Assembly: GCA_021525805.1 (NCBI GenBank)
Contig: GCA_021525805.1_3940.1
Direction: 5' to 3' (one strand)
Origin: a phage
Length of the DNA stretch: 64,000 nt
Of the stretch, positions 5,741 to 42,812 are shown piece by piece. The first letter of the stretch is position 1, and the number at the start of each line of letters is the position of its first letter. Position numbers and translations under genes: made by a program. The notes under the pieces are model-generated. The model was not told the DNA's origin and ran no database searches. It saw nothing but the letters and a program-made list of their open reading frames with translations.

Positions 5741-6274
5741 CTATAATTGTAGGTTGCATTCTTTACTTACCTCTTCAAGTTTAACCTCAGAGTCCTTAAG
5801 TAGTTTCTTATGAACCCTGAACCTTATTAGTGAGATGATGATACCAGCTAAAGGAACAGCATACAAGTACCAAACATCATGTACCTTTGCAGTAATCTGT
5901 GTAATGGTCAAGTCTTGAGCTATACAACTGATTGCTGATACTGCCAGTAACATTGCTAAGAAGAACGCCAGTACCATAACAATACTTAGGCAGCCTCTGG
6001 CATGGTGTTCATGCTTAATACACTTATTCTTTTCATCAACAACTCTGTTGTAGTCATTTGTAAAGTCTCTGTAGAAAGCTTTCAAGTATTCTTGACTGTA
6101 TCCTTCAAAGCAACCTGTGCCATACCAATAATCACCACCAAAATGTGCTATGATGCCGGTATCTCCATTCGGTTTGGTTACTTTTAAAGAAGTATGATGG
6201 CGAGTATCCTGATAATCTATCTTGTATCTTTCTTCGTAAATCATTTTCCAACCCCTCTCAATCGTTTGTTCCAT
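5741..6274 (-). CDS. hypothetical membrane protein
   Basis: 177-aa ORF with long hydrophobic segment (CLSIVMVLAFFLAMLLAVSAISCIA) and second TM-like stretch. Confidence 0.6.
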   Translation of the reverse strand: MEQTIERGWKMIYEERYKIDYQDTRHHTSLKVTKPNGDTGIIAHFGGDYWYGTGCFEGYSQEYLKAFYRDFTNDYNRVVDEKNKCIKHEHHARGCLSIVMVLAFFLAMLLAVSAISCIAQDLTITQITAKVHDVWYLYAVPLAGIIISLIRFRVHKKLLKDSEVKLEEVSKECNLQL

Positions 6275-16709: not shown

Positions 16710-16787
16710 GTTCCAGTATCCCAATTGGCAGAGGATGCAAGCTCAAACCTTGTATTAGTGACGGTTCGAATCCGTCTTGGAACACCA
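16710..16787 (+). tRNA. tRNA with anticodon CAA (Leu-type anticodon, short variable arm)
   Basis: acceptor GTTCCAG/TTGGAAC; D-loop AATTGGCAGA; anticodon arm GCAAG-CTCAAAC-CTTGT; CCA encoded. Confidence 0.6.
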
Positions 16788-16805
16788 ATTTAAAGAGGCT
16801 ATTTA

Positions 16806-17363
16806 ATGAGATATTTGAAGTATGCTTCATGGATTTTCTTAGCTTTACTAGACCCAATTGCAGCAACCCTAGCAGTTATCTTAGCACCTTTCGTAGTTCC
16901 ATTCTACAGTGAGAAGAAAGGGCATCTACCTTTTGGATTCAGATGGATGGAGACCTATGACAACCCGATTGATGGTGATAAAGGCCACGTTGAGAGATGG
17001 GCTAAGATTAGAAAGATTGGTAAGCTCGGTGTTTATATGCAGAGAGTTGGATGGCTCTGGAGAAACAAAGCTTATAACTTCTCTTACCATGTATTAGGAA
17101 GAGATGTAAAAGATGTTACTAAGTGGAAAGGCAATATCAACGTAAGTTCTGACCCTGAAGATAATCAGACTGGTTATCTCCTAATGTGGAACAGCAATGC
17201 TTGGGGATTATTCGCTTTTATCCCATCAATTAAAGTCTTTGGTAAACAATTTTACTGGAGAATTTATGTTGGGTGGAAACTAAAAAGTGTTGTCCCAGAA
17301 GAAAGAGCATTCTCAAGGGAAAGAGTTATGTTGGCATTCTTTATTCATCCACTGAGAAAGTAA
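16806..17363 (+). CDS. hypothetical membrane protein embedded in tRNA array
   Basis: 185-aa ORF with AAGAGG RBS; N-terminal TM segment WIFLALLDPIAATLAVILAPFVV. Confidence 0.6.
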   Translation: MRYLKYASWIFLALLDPIAATLAVILAPFVVPFYSEKKGHLPFGFRWMETYDNPIDGDKGHVERWAKIRKIGKLGVYMQRVGWLWRNKAYNFSYHVLGRDVKDVTKWKGNINVSSDPEDNQTGYLLMWNSNAWGLFAFIPSIKVFGKQFYWRIYVGWKLKSVVPEERAFSRERVMLAFFIHPLRK

Positions 17364-17371
17364 AGATTTAA

Positions 17372-17447
17372 AGGGGATTAGTTTACAAGGTTAAAACCTC
17401 GGTCTTTGAAATCGAAGAAGTTGGTTCAATTCCAACATCCCCCGCCA
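17372..17447 (+). tRNA. tRNA-Gln (anticodon TTG)
   Basis: anticodon arm TCGGT-CTTTGAA-ATCGA; T-arm GTTGGTTCAATTCCAAC perfect; CCA encoded. Confidence 0.65.
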
Positions 17448-17814: not shown

Positions 17815-18549
17815 ATGAAAGAGATGACAGAACAAGGTAAGGAGATTTTTAATCTCTTAAAAACCGGTAAAGGGTTTTCTAACCCACTTATTACTGGTGC
17901 AGCAGTTCTCGGTGGAACCGTAGCTGCCTCAACATCACTTATAAGCTCTATTAGCTCTGTAACAGACCCTACAATGAAGGAGAAGCTTGTTGCTGCTGGA
18001 CTTACAACAGTCCTTCTAAACAGCTTTACAACAAGCCTGACAAGCACTACAGCAACTACTAAGACCCTAACAGACTATGGTCAAAAGTCTATTGATGAGT
18101 TTTCATCACGTATGCAGGTAGCAAAGGGATACTCCAATGTTATGGGTGCAGCAGGAGAACAAGTTGGTTGTACACCATTCAGTGGTATTATGGGTGTTGC
18201 TACAGAATATGGTCAAAAAGCTATTGACATGATGAACAGTACACTAGATAGTGTTAATGGTGTGTTAAGTGACTTACAAGATGCTATTGATAAGGGTCTT
18301 GATACTGTTTCTGATTTGGCTAACCAAGCTGTTAGCAAGATTAATGAAGGTATCTCAAAGATTACAGCTTATGCAGATGAAGTTGTGCAGATGATTGAAG
18401 AAGAAGCTGCCCTTATTGCAGAGTACCTTAAAACGAATATCAATGGGTTCTTAGCAGGTATCTTACCAGACTGGTTTGATGATGCTTGTAAAACTGGTGT
18501 AATCGACACTATTGCAACACCAGAAATGAAGAACGCATTGCAGAAATAA
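17815..18549 (+). CDS. hypothetical Ser/Thr/Ala-rich protein (start refined from track ORF 17752..18549)
   Basis: track ORF starts at GTG inside tRNA-Phe; ATG at 17815 lies just past the tRNA; stop abuts tRNA-Ser. Confidence 0.55.
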   Translation: MKEMTEQGKEIFNLLKTGKGFSNPLITGAAVLGGTVAASTSLISSISSVTDPTMKEKLVAAGLTTVLLNSFTTSLTSTTATTKTLTDYGQKSIDEFSSRMQVAKGYSNVMGAAGEQVGCTPFSGIMGVATEYGQKAIDMMNSTLDSVNGVLSDLQDAIDKGLDTVSDLANQAVSKINEGISKITAYADEVVQMIEEEAALIAEYLKTNINGFLAGILPDWFDDACKTGVIDTIATPEMKNALQK

Positions 18550-18883: not shown

Positions 18884-18910
18884 TTGACGGTCTCTGTGCC
18901 GTCTTTTTTA
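18884..18910 (+). terminator. putative rho-independent terminator
   Basis: GACGG-TCTCTGTG-CCGTC followed by TTTTTT. Confidence 0.5.
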
Positions 18911-27895: not shown

Positions 27896-29248
27896 ATGTG
27901 GAATCCAATTGTTAATGTAGATATTACATTGAACACCGCAGGAACTACAAGAGAAGGTTTTGGGCTGCCACTATTTTTAGCTTCAACAGATAATTTTGAA
28001 GAAAGGGTGCGTGGCTACACTTCCTTAACTGAAGTTGCTGAAGATTTCGATGAAAGGTCTGCTGCATATAAGGCTGCTAAACAACTTTGGAGTCAGACTC
28101 CTAAAGTAACTCAGCTTTATATTGGGAGACGCGCTATGCAGTACACTGTATCAATTCCTGATGAGGTTACTGAGAGCACAGATTATTCTTTAACTGTAGC
28201 TGTGAGCGGTGGAGTTTCTCAACCATTCCAGTATACAGCACAGACATCAGATACCGCTGAGAAAGTGCTACAGCAGTTCAAAACACAGATTGAAGCTGAC
28301 CCAACAATTAAAGATAAGGTCACTGTGAATGTAACTGGTAGTGCTGGTTCTGCCACAATGATTATTACCAAAGCTGGTGATAATGACTTTGTGAAAGTAA
28401 CAACCACAGCACAGACTGTATATATTGCAAGTACAACTGCCGATACAGCATCAACTGCTCTGGCAGCCATTGAAGCTTATTCTACTGACTGGTATTTCAT
28501 TGCAGCAGAAGATAGGACTCAACAGTTTGTCTTAGCAATGGCTTCTGAGATTCAGGCTCGCAAGAAAATCTTCTTTACAGCTAACTCCGATGTAACAGCC
28601 CTGCAAGGTACAGAATTAGCCAGTGCAAATGATGTTCCAGCACAGCTTGCTAAGAATATGTACACTCGTACAATTTGCTTGTGGCATCACACAGCAGCAG
28701 AAGATTACCCAGAGATGGCATACATTGCTTATGGTGCTCCATATGATGCAGGTTCAATTGCTTGGGGTAATGCTCAGCTAACTGGTGTAGCAGCTTCTCT
28801 ACAACCATCTAATAAGAGACCTCTGACAAGTATCCAGAAGTCAGCTTTAGATGCACGTCACTGTAACTTTATTGACCTTGATGGTGGTGTTCCAGTGGTT
28901 CGTAGAGGGATTACTTCTGGTGGGGAATGGATTGATATCGTCCGTGGTGTTGACTGGTTAGAATCAGACCTGAAAACTTCTCTGAGAGACTTGCTAATTA
29001 ACCAGAAGGGTGGTAAGATTACTTATGATGATACTGGTATTACCCGTATTCGTCAAGTCATTGAAACCTCTCTGCAAAGAGCAGTCAACAGAAACTTCCT
29101 GTCATCTTACACAGTTAATGTTCCTAAAGCCTCTCAAGTTGCTTTAGCAGACAAGAAAGCTCGTATCCTGAAAGACGTTACCTTCGCAGGTATCTTAGCA
29201 GGTGCTATCTTGGATGTTGACTTGAAAGGTACAGTGGCTTACGAATAA
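27896..29248 (+). CDS. putative tail sheath protein
   Basis: 450 aa, followed by 148-aa tube-like gene, two chaperone-like ORFs and tape measure (myovirus-type order). Confidence 0.5.
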   Translation: MWNPIVNVDITLNTAGTTREGFGLPLFLASTDNFEERVRGYTSLTEVAEDFDERSAAYKAAKQLWSQTPKVTQLYIGRRAMQYTVSIPDEVTESTDYSLTVAVSGGVSQPFQYTAQTSDTAEKVLQQFKTQIEADPTIKDKVTVNVTGSAGSATMIITKAGDNDFVKVTTTAQTVYIASTTADTASTALAAIEAYSTDWYFIAAEDRTQQFVLAMASEIQARKKIFFTANSDVTALQGTELASANDVPAQLAKNMYTRTICLWHHTAAEDYPEMAYIAYGAPYDAGSIAWGNAQLTGVAASLQPSNKRPLTSIQKSALDARHCNFIDLDGGVPVVRRGITSGGEWIDIVRGVDWLESDLKTSLRDLLINQKGGKITYDDTGITRIRQVIETSLQRAVNRNFLSSYTVNVPKASQVALADKKARILKDVTFAGILAGAILDVDLKGTVAYE

Positions 29249-42440: not shown

Positions 42441-42812
42441 ATGAAGTGGCTAGAGGAAGCTTTTAAAAATAATATTGGTGCAATTGTAGTTGGTATTTTT
42501 AGTGTTATTGGGATGTATACCACGATGCAAGTTTCAAGTGGTAAACAAGAAGTGTCTGTCACAACAAAGTTACAGCAGCTAGATAATTATTCCAAAAGTA
42601 ACTATTCAGCTATTCGTGATTTACAGTCTGACATGAGGCTGCTTCAGCTAGGGATGGAGAACCAGAAAGTCCAGTTAGAGAATGTTAAGGGTGAAAACGC
42701 AAAACTTACCAAAACTCTTGATAAATTCTCTGACAGTGTGAATAATCTGGCTCAATCAGTATCAGCCCTCCAAGCTATTACTGAGAAGAACACAAAGAAT
42801 ACTGAAAAATAA
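42441..42812 (+). CDS. hypothetical membrane-anchored coiled-coil protein
   Basis: 123 aa; N-terminal TM segment IGAIVVGIFSVIGMYTTM then helical region. Confidence 0.45.
   Translation: MKWLEEAFKNNIGAIVVGIFSVIGMYTTMQVSSGKQEVSVTTKLQQLDNYSKSNYSAIRDLQSDMRLLQLGMENQKVQLENVKGENAKLTKTLDKFSDSVNNLAQSVSALQAITEKNTKNTEK

What the first reader, a model, noticed from the sequence alone, without database searches (positions are those of the whole stretch)
16806..17363. Membrane-protein gene embedded inside the tRNA array
A 185-aa ORF with an AAGAGG RBS and an N-terminal transmembrane segment interrupts the tRNA array, between tRNA(CAA) and tRNA-Gln. Protein genes inside phage tRNA clusters are often accessory, for example superinfection exclusion or host-modulation functions.
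Basis: partly seen in the sequence, partly recalled or inferred. Interest (0 to 1): 0.4.

Follow-up and report, generated by a model that had tools for sequence, protein, structure and literature searches.

The report
Conserved phage membrane protein among tRNAs
The ORF is a real, strongly conserved gene for a single-pass membrane protein (Felix O1 gp48, Pfam DUF7338) sitting inside the phage's tRNA array; its function is untested, but in other phages its relatives sit in or beside the cell-lysis gene cassette, so it most likely helps control host lysis.

Summary
Window 16806-17363(+) encodes a 185-aa protein with an AAGAGG ribosome-binding site and one N-terminal membrane helix. It lies 18 nt after tRNA-Leu(CAA) and 8 nt before tRNA-Gln(UUG) in a 22-tRNA array of a Felix O1-like phage. 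It is the ortholog of Felix O1 gp48 and belongs to Pfam DUF7338 / phrog_2143 (E 5e-62), under strong purifying selection (dN/dS 0.03-0.12). The family has 832 clusters at 50% identity. A confident AlphaFold model (pLDDT 94.6) has no fold match in the PDB. The "holin" label on some relatives traces to a topology-only call ("class III holin") in the phage Mushroom genome note. DUF7338 is unrelated to T4 holin T and co-occurs with T or other holins in several phages. In at least eight distant lineages it lies within three genes of an endolysin. In Aeh1/phiAS5-type Aeromonas phages, where no T homolog was found, it heads a three-gene lysis cassette in the slot where T4-like phages carry t. The tRNA linkage recurs in several lineages. 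Best reading: a lysis-module inner-membrane protein (holin-type or holin partner), with moderate confidence. The gene is already catalogued; its function is unproven.

The parts
16806..17363 (+). CDS, 185 aa, DUF7338 / phrog_2143 protein; ortholog of Felix O1 gp48 (NP_944875.1), Bas63 bas63_0153 and Mushroom CPT_Mushroom87
   Evidence: dN/dS 0.03-0.12
16793..16798 (+). Shine-Dalgarno AAGAGG, 7-nt spacer to the ATG, inside the 18-nt gap after tRNA-Leu
   Evidence: sequence read; an RBS is annotated at the same place in Mushroom
16824..16904 (+). codons for the N-terminal transmembrane helix (about residues 7-33; W9 and P28 conserved)
   Evidence: hydropathy; AlphaFold helix 2-33; conserved across the family
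16953..16979 (+). codons for the conserved juxtamembrane motif T50-Y-D52-N-P-I-D-G57-D (T50 invariant; D52 and G57 at 90% or more family-wide)
   Evidence: alignments A1 and A2
17052..17081 (+). codons for the conserved motif W83-L-W-R86-N87-K-A-Y-N-F (W83, R86, N87 invariant family-wide)
   Evidence: weak motif match to flavivirus M
16710..16787 (+). tRNA-Leu(CAA), ends 18 nt before the start codon
17372..17447 (+). tRNA-Gln(UUG), begins 8 nt after the stop codon
15143..15171 (+). sigma-70-type promoter-like site TTGACA-17-TATAGT (11 of 12), equal to Felix O1 'P45'; nearest upstream promoter candidate for the tRNA/ORF unit
   Evidence: PMC3185647 section 2.5
18886..18909 (+). intrinsic-terminator-like hairpin plus T run after tRNA-Cys; probable end of the tRNA/ORF transcription unit
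17815..18549 (+). second protein gene in the same array (DUF7217 / phrog_2114; Felix O1 ORF49)
9134..9598 (-). endolysin (Phage_lysozyme), 7.2 kb away on the opposite strand; candidate functional partner if the protein acts in lysis
   Evidence: Bas63 bas63_0123 'endolysin'
42441..42812 (+). 123-aa protein with one TM plus a coiled coil (Felix O1 gp79-like, phrog_4038); the competing 'holin' annotation in this genus; analog of the small TM+coiled-coil ORFs that accompany DUF7338 elsewhere

Best explanation
The gene encodes a single-pass inner-membrane protein of the uncharacterised DUF7338 family. It has a very short N-terminus, one conserved TM helix, and a basic alpha/beta C-terminal domain of about 150 aa with a fold not seen in the PDB. 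That domain is probably periplasmic (N-in, C-out). SHOWN: the gene is real, conserved, under purifying selection, and transcribed in Felix O1. It has no promoter or terminator of its own and abuts tRNAs on both sides. INFERRED: it is made as part of a tRNA precursor started at a sigma-70-type promoter inside the array (15143-15171) and ended at the terminator after tRNA-Cys (18886-18909). RNase P cleavage at tRNA-Gln and 3' processing of tRNA-Leu would then release a short mRNA with an 18-nt leader that carries the Shine-Dalgarno site. INFERRED from context in other phages: the family belongs to the lysis module. It acts at the cytoplasmic membrane either as a T-unrelated 'class III-type' holin (one TM plus a large periplasmic domain) or as a partner or regulator of a separate holin, controlling when endolysin reaches the wall. 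I put roughly equal weight on those two sub-readings. In Felixounavirus the lysis genes are scattered, and this one has landed in the tRNA array, a region where the family recurs in several lineages.
For: Family identity and reality of the gene:
-.

Topology:
- Single TM in 164 of 169 members.
- Net charge is +2 on the N-terminal flank and 0 on the C-terminal flank.
- The C-terminal domain is basic in 154 of 169 members.
- AlphaFold model pLDDT 94.6, pTM 0.84.

Lysis-module context in independent lineages:
- Aeh1/phiAS5-type Aeromonas phages have tail fibre -> DUF7338 -> e lysozyme -> a TM+coiled-coil ORF resembling an Rz-like spanin -> asiA(-). This is exactly the slot where JS98 and L9-6 carry t.
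- All 13 listed DUF7338-positive Aeromonas records (219-233 kb) are absent from the 43 listed T-positive ones (160-190 kb).
- L078, L080 and L084: 2-TM ORF -> DUF7338 -> endolysin, with overlapping or abutting stop and start codons.
- L063: tail protein -> DUF7338 -> 1-TM ORF -> SAR-type endolysin.
- L081 and L066: DUF7338 -> holin phrog_3427 -> endolysin.
- L103: tail fibre -> assembly protein -> DUF7338 -> 96-aa TM ORF -> GH108 endolysin -> Rz.
- L098: Q -> holin -> lysozyme -> DUF2570 -> LysC -> DUF7338.

Felixounavirus itself:
- No T homolog and no homology-supported holin.
- The Center for Phage Technology annotated this gene as a class III holin.

Transcription unit:
-.
Against: There is no experiment on any family member. 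In this window the gene is not near the endolysin: it is 7.2 kb away on the other strand. In Felix O1 the transcript peaks at 5 min, as do ORFs 45, 46 and 49 downstream of the same promoter. That is early for a holin, although the same table also puts the capsid gene at 5 min, so the timing data are weak. DUF7338 co-occurs with bona fide holins: T in JS98, RCIP0006 and Pet-CM3-4, Phage_holin_2 in L098, and phrog_3427 in L081. So it is not generally the sole holin. The strictly conserved polar residues in the extramembrane domain (T50, D52, R86, N87, K158) look more like a binding or catalytic site than a typical holin. The Felix O1 authors and the manually curated BASEL annotation did not call it a holin. 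Junctions between tail-fibre and lysis modules, and tRNA arrays, are both general hot spots for accessory genes, so position alone is not proof of function.
Confidence: 0.5

Rival explanations
1. Superinfection exclusion or envelope-modifying accessory protein. On this reading an early-made inner-membrane protein uses its periplasmic domain to block DNA entry or tail lysozyme of incoming phages, or to alter a receptor or envelope component so that progeny are not lost on debris.
For: Expression in Felix O1 is early, 5 min. The distribution is patchy and accessory, with about 60% identity between unrelated phage families, which points to horizontal transfer. The gene is often adjacent to tail-fibre or receptor-binding genes, which from general knowledge is where receptor-blocking genes such as T5 llp or cor tend to lie. 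The polar motifs and basic periplasmic domain suit ligand or partner binding. It co-exists with complete canonical lysis sets, so it is dispensable for the basic lysis pathway.
Against: There is no similarity to any known exclusion protein or to any other Pfam, NCBIfam or PHROG family. PADLOC was not searched. In small phages the gene is translationally coupled inside late lysis or tail operons rather than being a separate moron with its own signals. In Aeh1-type phages it heads the lysis cassette in the t slot.
Confidence: 0.25
2. A function tied to the tRNA genes themselves, with the membrane anchor incidental. Examples would be countering a membrane-associated or imported tRNA-targeting nuclease, or another anti-defence role. 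On this reading the gene travels with tRNAs as a cassette.
For: The tRNA linkage recurs in separate lineages. These are Felixounavirus; Avunavirus Av-05; Dhaka-, Karam-, Slopek- and Gelderlandvirus-like phages and Cronobacter T4-likes; and homologs at about 33% identity in L067, L069 and L073 that lie 17-267 nt after a tRNA. The array is preceded by the Ro60-like gene that PhageMaP reported as a counter-defence gene in Bas63. In the Av-05-like contig L105, an RNA ligase and a P-loop AAA_33 protein (possibly a kinase) lie nearby.
Against: Most distant family members have no tRNA within 6 kb and sit next to lysis or tail genes instead. tRNA clusters neighbour the lysozyme region in T4-like phages anyway, so the linkage may be inherited synteny or a shared insertion hot spot. 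Nothing in the protein suggests RNA or nuclease binding.
Confidence: 0.1
3. It is specifically the sole holin of Felixounavirus, a class III holin, as annotated in Mushroom, SLAM_phiST56 and the GEC_vB phages. This is a sharper version of the best explanation.
For: The topology matches class III. There is no T homolog and no Pfam or PHROG holin in the genus. The Aeh1-type displacement of t supports it. See also the CPT statement.
Against: The same genus has a competing 'holin' annotation on the gp79-like TM+coiled-coil protein. The Felix O1 paper lists five other candidates and not gp48. The early RT-PCR peak argues against it. So does co-occurrence with other holins elsewhere. PhageMaP reports the lysis/membrane class as mostly non-essential in Bas63, but gives no per-gene value.
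Confidence: 0.25

Closest known systems
Pfam DUF7338 (PF24027) / PHROG phrog_2143; Felix O1 gp48 (NP_944875.1)
   Same: Full-length, high-scoring member (E 5e-62 and 3e-81). About 96-99% identical to orthologs in more than 170 Felixounavirus records, in the same position in the tRNA array.
   Different: Nothing differs except a presence/absence polymorphism of tRNA-Arg(ACG) just upstream. The family has no assigned function.
T4 holin T (class III holin, gene t)
   Same: Architecture: one TM near the N-terminus and a globular C-terminal domain of about 150 aa, probably periplasmic. In Aeh1/phiAS5-type phages the DUF7338 gene sits in the genomic slot of t, next to the lysozyme gene.
   Different: No sequence relationship (hhalign probability 0.1%; no Pfam hit). 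No solved structure reached significance in the fold searches, and no holin T chain appears among the rows shown. The N-terminal cytoplasmic segment is about 6-8 residues, against a TM that begins near residue 29-35 in JS98 and L9-6 T. Both genes co-occur in JS98, RCIP0006 and Pet-CM3-4. Hole formation is untested.
Antiholins and lysis regulators encoded beside holins (T4 RI; P1 LydB; P2 LysA), named from general knowledge
   Same: A membrane-anchored protein with an extracytoplasmic domain, encoded next to another small membrane protein and the endolysin in many phages. Early transcription in Felix O1 is compatible, from general knowledge, with T4 rI being expressed early as well as late.
   Different: No sequence or fold similarity to any of them was found. 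No partner interaction has been shown.
Rz-type i-spanins
   Same: N-terminal TM, periplasmic remainder, location in the lysis cassette.
   Different: The AlphaFold model is a compact alpha/beta domain, not a coiled coil. There is no associated o-spanin. Canonical spanins are present in addition in L098 and L103.
Flavivirus M protein
   Same: A short motif, W-[LI]-[WI]-R-N-P-[AG]-Y-[GA]-F ... V-L-G (E 1e-3 against PDB sequences). This is the probable origin of the 'envelope protein' labels on some homologs.
   Different: Only 49 residues match at borderline significance, with different architecture and biology. I treat it as chance or convergence at a membrane-interface helix, not homology.

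Membership tests
Pfam DUF7338 / phrog_2143 | Profile match above the curated threshold over the full length | tested here: met
   209.1 bits against a cut-off of 27, residues 1-184 of 185; phrog_2143 E 3.2e-81, residues 1-185
Pfam DUF7338 / phrog_2143 | Family-wide invariant residues present (T50, W83, R86, N87, G109, G156) | tested here: met
   All are present in the window protein, which is the reference row of alignments A1 and A2
T4 holin T family (class III holin) | Sequence or profile homology to gpT | tested here: not met
   hhalign of the 52-sequence profile against JS98 T gives probability 0.1%; Pfam scan at E<=10 gives only DUF7338; tblastn with T finds nothing in Felixounavirus DNA
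T4 holin T family (class III holin) | Single TM, N-in/C-out, large periplasmic C-terminal domain | tested here: inconclusive
   The single TM is clear. Orientation rests only on a weak flank-charge difference (+2 against 0). No signal-peptide or topology predictor and no experiment were available.
T4 holin T family (class III holin) | Fold of the periplasmic domain like the solved T structure | tested here: not met
Holins (functional class) | Encoded next to the endolysin/spanin genes | tested here: inconclusive
   Not met in this window: the endolysin is at 9134-9598(-), 7.2 kb away. Met in at least eight distant lineages.
Holins (functional class) | Late expression and timed, energy-poison-triggerable membrane hole formation | not testable with these tools
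   The only data are Felix O1 RT-PCR, with a maximum at 5 min, and that table is of low discriminating power. No functional assay exists.
Holins (functional class) | Being the only holin-like gene of the phage | tested here: not met
   It co-occurs with T, Phage_holin_2 and phrog_3427. It may be the only candidate in Aeh1-type phages.
Rz-type i-spanin | Periplasmic coiled-coil domain and a cognate o-spanin lipoprotein gene | tested here: not met
   The model shows short helices plus a five-stranded sheet. The protein has no Cys and hence no lipobox. Separate spanins are present in L098 and L103.
Superinfection-exclusion proteins (T4 Imm/Sp, HK97 gp15, Sie types) | Homology to a known exclusion protein | tested here: not met
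   No Pfam, PHROG or NCBIfam hit other than DUF7338/phrog_2143
Superinfection-exclusion proteins (T4 Imm/Sp, HK97 gp15, Sie types) | Expression protects cells from incoming phage | not testable with these tools
   This needs plating or injection assays

The most novel reading that the evidence does not exclude
DUF7338 is a widespread, previously unrecognised holin family of class III architecture, or an obligate holin partner, with a new periplasmic fold. On this reading it replaced gene t in Aeh1/phiAS5-type T4-like phages and is the long-missing holin of Felix O1-like phages. In those phages it would be produced not from a lysis cassette but from an mRNA cut out of a tRNA precursor by tRNA-processing enzymes.
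Probability: 0.3. Interest if true: 0.55.

Novelty: already known. Interest (0 to 1): 0.33.

Why it matters
Felix O1-like phages are widely used for Salmonella and E. coli typing and biocontrol, yet their holin has never been identified. GenBank carries two conflicting 'holin' labels, on gp48-like and gp79-like genes, both assigned without experiments. The comparative evidence here gives a concrete, cheap test for a family of more than 800 sequence clusters with an unmatched fold. That evidence is the lysis-cassette linkage in many lineages and the occupation of the t slot in Aeh1-type phages. If the lysis role is confirmed, it would add a new holin or lysis-regulator family. It would also give an example of a protein-coding mRNA whose ends are set by tRNA processing in a phage. 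If it is refuted, the 'holin' annotations now spreading through databases should be removed.

Tried and rejected
- Sequence libraries. NCBIfam gave no hit. No paper mentions DUF7338, PF24027, phrog_2143 or NP_944875.
- Homology to T4 holin T was rejected.
- An i-spanin or u-spanin/lipoprotein reading was rejected: the fold is globular and the protein has no cysteine.
- The flavivirus M match was judged a short-motif coincidence.
- P0033 (a DUF7338 N-terminal half fused to a Gp53-like tail-fibre C-terminus on a 1.1-kb contig) was treated as a probable assembly or neighbour-fusion artefact. It reflects the tail-fibre adjacency rather than a real architecture.
- The diverse alignment A2 was too divergent for the search for related loci, so A1 was used instead.
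- The PhageMaP paper on Bas63 could have given a knockout fitness value for this gene (g153). Its supplements are not held and the text does not mention the gene.
- I looked for an o-spanin embedded in phiAS5 ORF0118 and found none.
- A phylogenetic-profile test of the gp79-like protein as a partner was uninformative, because tblastn finds it almost only in Felix O1-like (about 82-93 kb) records.
- My first guess at the Bas63 accession was wrong; it was Bas51.

Full report
**1. What is there.**

The window is a Felix O1-like myovirus (Felixounavirus). The protein of the flagged ORF is 94-99% identical to proteins in more than 200 Escherichia and Salmonella Felixounavirus records. The surrounding 5 kb matches them at 96-97% DNA identity.

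The ORF is exactly as described: 16806-17363(+), ATG start, 185 aa. AAGAGG lies at 16793-16798, seven bases before the ATG. ARAGORN finds 22 tRNAs between 13890 and 18723. tRNA-Leu(CAA) ends at 16787 and tRNA-Gln(UUG) begins at 17372 (Rfam agrees). So the coding sequence fills the gap between two tRNAs, leaving 18 and 8 spare bases.

It is the ortholog of Felix O1 ORF48 (NP_944875.1, 'phage conserved protein'), Bas63 bas63_0153 ('hypothetical protein') and Mushroom CPT_Mushroom87 ('holin').

**2. It is a real gene.**

- It matches Pfam DUF7338 over its full length (209 bits, cut-off 27) and phrog_2143 (E 3e-81), both of unknown function.
- Pairwise dN/dS against twelve Felixounavirus orthologs is 0.03-0.12, with dS up to 0.37 among the eleven close ones and about 2.1 for the 86%-identical L035.
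- In Felix O1 the ORF gave an RT-PCR product that peaked 5 min after infection. The protein is not in the virion proteome list (PMC3185647, Tables 3 and 4).

**3. The protein.**

Hydropathy shows one strong hydrophobic segment (residues 7-33, peak 2.2) and nothing else. The protein has pI 9.9 and no cysteine.

Across 169 full-length family members:
- 164 keep the single N-terminal TM;
- 154 have a net-positive C-terminal domain (median pI 9.4);
- flank charges are +2 on the N side and 0 on the C side, a weak vote for N-in/C-out.

A 52-sequence alignment at 28% mean identity keeps T50, W83, R86, N87, G109 and G156 invariant. P28, P42, D52, G57, G123, W157, K158 and P182 are conserved at 90% or more. 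These form two motifs, TxDNx[LI]DGD just after the membrane and WLWRN[KP]AY.

AlphaFold2 with a 30-sequence alignment gives a very confident model (pLDDT 94.6, pTM 0.84). It has a helix at 2-33, several short helices at 43-96, then a five-stranded sheet at 106-184.

- The viral structure library returns only unannotated relatives.
- A profile search of PDB sequences finds only a 49-residue motif match to flavivirus M (E 1e-3). I regard that as coincidence or convergence, and as the likely source of the stray 'envelope protein' labels.
- NCBIfam has nothing.

**4. Size and spread of the family.**

An exhaustive profile search of 1.84 billion representatives finds 832 clusters at E<=1e-3 and 368 at E<=1e-10. 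Nearly all are about 180 aa and single-domain.

In sequenced phages the family occurs at these identities:
- Felixounavirus, 94-99%;
- Avunavirus Av-05, 81%;
- about 60% in four T4-like groups: Dhakavirus JS98, Slopekvirus Miro, Karamvirus-like Enterobacter, Citrobacter and Cronobacter phages, and Gelderlandvirus Melville;
- about 35% in Aeh1/phiAS5-type Aeromonas phages, in Vibrio phages of about 290 kb, and in Serratia and Klebsiella jumbo phages of about 275-305 kb.

Sixty percent identity between Felix O1-like and T4-like phages points to horizontal transfer.

**5. Where the 'holin' label comes from.**

[quoted passage not shown] The record labels this gene as holin. No experiment is cited, and later records appear to copy the label.

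- The Felix O1 paper proposed gp79, gp116, gp118, gp119 or gp131 as holin candidates, not gp48.
- The BASEL annotation, which searched for holins by hand, left both bas63_0153 and the gp79-like bas63_0029 as hypothetical.
- Other records put 'holin' on the gp79-like gene.

The holin of this genus is therefore unresolved.

**6. Test against holin T.**

hhalign of the family profile against JS98 T gives probability 0.1%. JS98 carries both t and DUF7338, as do Klebsiella phage RCIP0006 and Cronobacter phage Pet-CM3-4. Felixounavirus DNA has no T homolog. So membership of the T family fails, although the architecture is alike.

**7. Context in distant relatives.**

For 29 distant viral or prophage loci I called ORFs, clustered the neighbours and scanned them against PHROGs. 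Upstream neighbours are enriched in tail-fibre and tail-fibre-assembly families. Downstream neighbours are enriched in endolysins.

Per locus:
- L078, L084 and L080: a 109-112-aa 2-TM ORF -> DUF7338 -> endolysin, with overlapping or abutting codons.
- L063: tail protein -> DUF7338 -> 89-aa 1-TM ORF -> endolysin with a SAR-like N-terminus.
- L081 and L066: DUF7338 -> holin phrog_3427 -> endolysin.

Precomputed Pfam context adds two more:
- L103/L104, a Mu/P2-like phage: baseplate -> Gp53-like tail fibre -> assembly protein -> DUF7338 -> 96-aa TM ORF -> GH108 endolysin -> ... -> Rz.
- L098/L099, a lambdoid late operon: Q -> Phage_holin_2 -> Phage_lysozyme -> DUF2570 -> LysC -> DUF7338 -> terminase. 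I read DUF2570 and LysC as the i- and o-spanin. That is my interpretation of those Pfam families.

So the gene lies within three genes of an endolysin in about eight of roughly 27 lineages examined. By rough estimate about 9% would be expected for a random gene in a 65-gene phage. It usually accompanies another holin-like protein rather than replacing it.

**8. The Aeromonas case.**

In JS98 and Aeromonas phage L9-6 the order is tail fibre (gp37/38) -> t -> asiA(-).

In Aeh1 and phiAS5 the order is tail fibre -> DUF7338 (phrog_2143, E 4e-61) -> e lysozyme -> a 101-112-aa ORF -> asiA(-) ... gp52. That last ORF has one TM plus a coiled coil. It matches the Rz-like spanin family phrog_1152 at E 1e-12, and also phrog_4038, the family of the window's gp79-like protein.

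All 13 listed DUF7338-positive Aeromonas records are 219-233 kb Aeh1-type phages. None is among the 43 of 44 T-positive Aeromonas records listed, which are all 160-190 kb. No T-like sequence is in the phiAS5 locus.

This looks like displacement of t by a compact cassette headed by DUF7338. It is the strongest single argument for a holin-type role. It is not proof: ORF0118/Aeh1p340 has no embedded o-spanin and could itself be the holin.

**9. The tRNA linkage.**

The linkage is not peculiar to this window:
- The gene lies inside tRNA arrays in Felixounavirus, in L035 (86% identity, with a different tRNA order) and in Av-05 (14 tRNAs around it).
- It lies 70-234 nt after a tRNA in several T4-like lineages and within about 1 kb in others.
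- It lies 17-267 nt after tRNA-Met or tRNA-Arg in homologs of only about 33% identity (L067, L069, L073).

Most other distant members have no tRNA within 6 kb. In T4-like phages the tRNA cluster neighbours the lysozyme (e) region. In lambdoid phages, from general knowledge, tRNAs lie just upstream of the lysis genes. So the two linkages may reflect one ancestral neighbourhood or a shared insertion hot spot. I found nothing that ties the protein functionally to tRNAs.

**10. Expression model for this window.**

No promoter-like or terminator-like site flanks the ORF.
- The nearest upstream sigma-70-type site is TTGACA-17-TATAGT at 15143-15171. It is identical to Felix O1 'P45'.
- A terminator-like hairpin follows tRNA-Cys at 18886-18909.
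- In Felix O1 the four ORFs downstream of P45 that were assayed (45, 46, 48, 49) all peak at 5 min, whereas ORFs 41, 42 and 44 upstream peak at 25 min. That fits one early unit.

I infer that the mRNA is released from the tRNA precursor by RNase P at tRNA-Gln and by 3' maturation of tRNA-Leu. This leaves an 18-nt leader with the Shine-Dalgarno site and an 8-nt tail. That step is inference from established tRNA-processing biology, not shown here. The same RT-PCR table lists the capsid gene as 5 min too, so the timing argument is weak.

**11. Verdict.**

The gene is ordinary in the sense of being a long-catalogued, highly conserved phage gene, and its presence in the array is the norm for the genus.

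Its function is unknown. The evidence favours a lysis-module inner-membrane protein, either holin-type or a holin partner (about 0.5).

The existing 'holin' annotations rest on topology alone and conflict with each other. The family is large, has an unmatched predicted fold, and is experimentally tractable. That gives it moderate interest beyond this window.

Noticed in passing
window 17815-18549 (+): A second protein gene sits inside the tRNA array (244 aa from the ATG; DUF7217 / phrog_2114; Felix O1 ORF49). It lies between tRNA-Phe and tRNA-Ser, and its listed GTG-start ORF overlaps tRNA-Phe. The Felix O1 abstract lists Gp49 among virion proteins, yet its RT-PCR peak is at 5 min.
   Followed up: partly
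window 12309-13724 (+): The 471-aa gene directly upstream of the tRNA array (phrog_850 'RNA-binding protein'; DUF2828/DUF7788/vWA) is the ortholog of Bas63 gp130. PhageMaP reported gp130 as Ro60-like and as a counter to the 'ppl' defence system. Its authors speculated that some of the 'tRNAs' may be Y-RNA-like partners.
   Followed up: partly
window 15128-15785 (+), especially 15274-15546: This 660-nt stretch of the array has no ARAGORN tRNA, whereas relatives carry tRNA-Met, Ile, Arg or Trp there. Rfam gives two sub-threshold tmRNA-like hits (22 and 16 bits; gathering score 47). The Mushroom note says Felix O1 encodes an ssrA tmRNA that Mushroom lacks, so this could be a tmRNA remnant.
   Followed up: no
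window 16788-16805, compared with Felix O1 28054-28261 (L094): There is a presence/absence polymorphism just upstream of the ORF. Felix O1 has tRNA-Arg(ACG) ending 18 nt before the ORF, and SLAM_phiST56 and L014 have a tRNA-Arg ending 257 nt before it. The window, Mushroom and Bas63 have tRNA-Leu(CAA) 18-19 nt before the start with no tRNA-Arg. The 8-9-nt gap to tRNA-Gln is the same in all five records read.
   Followed up: partly
window 42441-42812 (+) and L005 4941-5279: The 123-aa gp79-like protein (one TM plus a coiled coil; phrog_4038) carries the competing 'holin' label in many Felixounavirus records. phiAS5 ORF0118, which follows DUF7338 and lysozyme, matches both phrog_4038 and an Rz-like spanin family. 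Similar small TM+coiled-coil ORFs sit right after DUF7338 in L063, L093 and L103.
   Followed up: partly
Aeromonas phage records: Among Aeromonas T4-like phages, holin T (160-190 kb phages) and DUF7338 (219-233 kb Aeh1/phiAS5-type phages) appear mutually exclusive. DUF7338 occupies the t slot.
   Followed up: yes
profile positions 54-102 of DUF7338 (window residues about 55-103): There is a motif-level match to flavivirus M proteins: WLWRNpaYgF...VLG against JEV M WIIRNPGYAF...VLG, E 1e-3. This probably explains the 'envelope protein' annotations on some homologs.
   Followed up: yes
L008 (Flagellimonas marina NZ_JBHSCL010000010.1); GU169904.1; MG065668.1: These public records look mislabelled or contaminated. 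A 178-kb 'Flagellimonas' contig carries a DUF7338 gene at 59% identity; its size and identity level are like those of Slopek-/Karamvirus genomes. 'Staphylococcus phage SA1' and 'Campylobacter phage A126' contain near-identical Felixounavirus genes.
   Followed up: no
L105 (E. coli assembly contig ABPOLI010000013.1, 124 kb): In this Av-05-like element, a T4-type RNA ligase and an AAA_33 P-loop protein (possibly a kinase) lie about 4 kb upstream of the DUF7338 gene. In Av-05 itself the gene sits among 14 tRNAs. This hints at a tRNA-repair module.
   Followed up: no
window 5741-6274 (-): A 177-aa ORF with two predicted TM segments in its C-terminal half has no Pfam family. It is another uncharacterised membrane protein, in the leftward unit that also holds the endolysin.
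   Followed up: no
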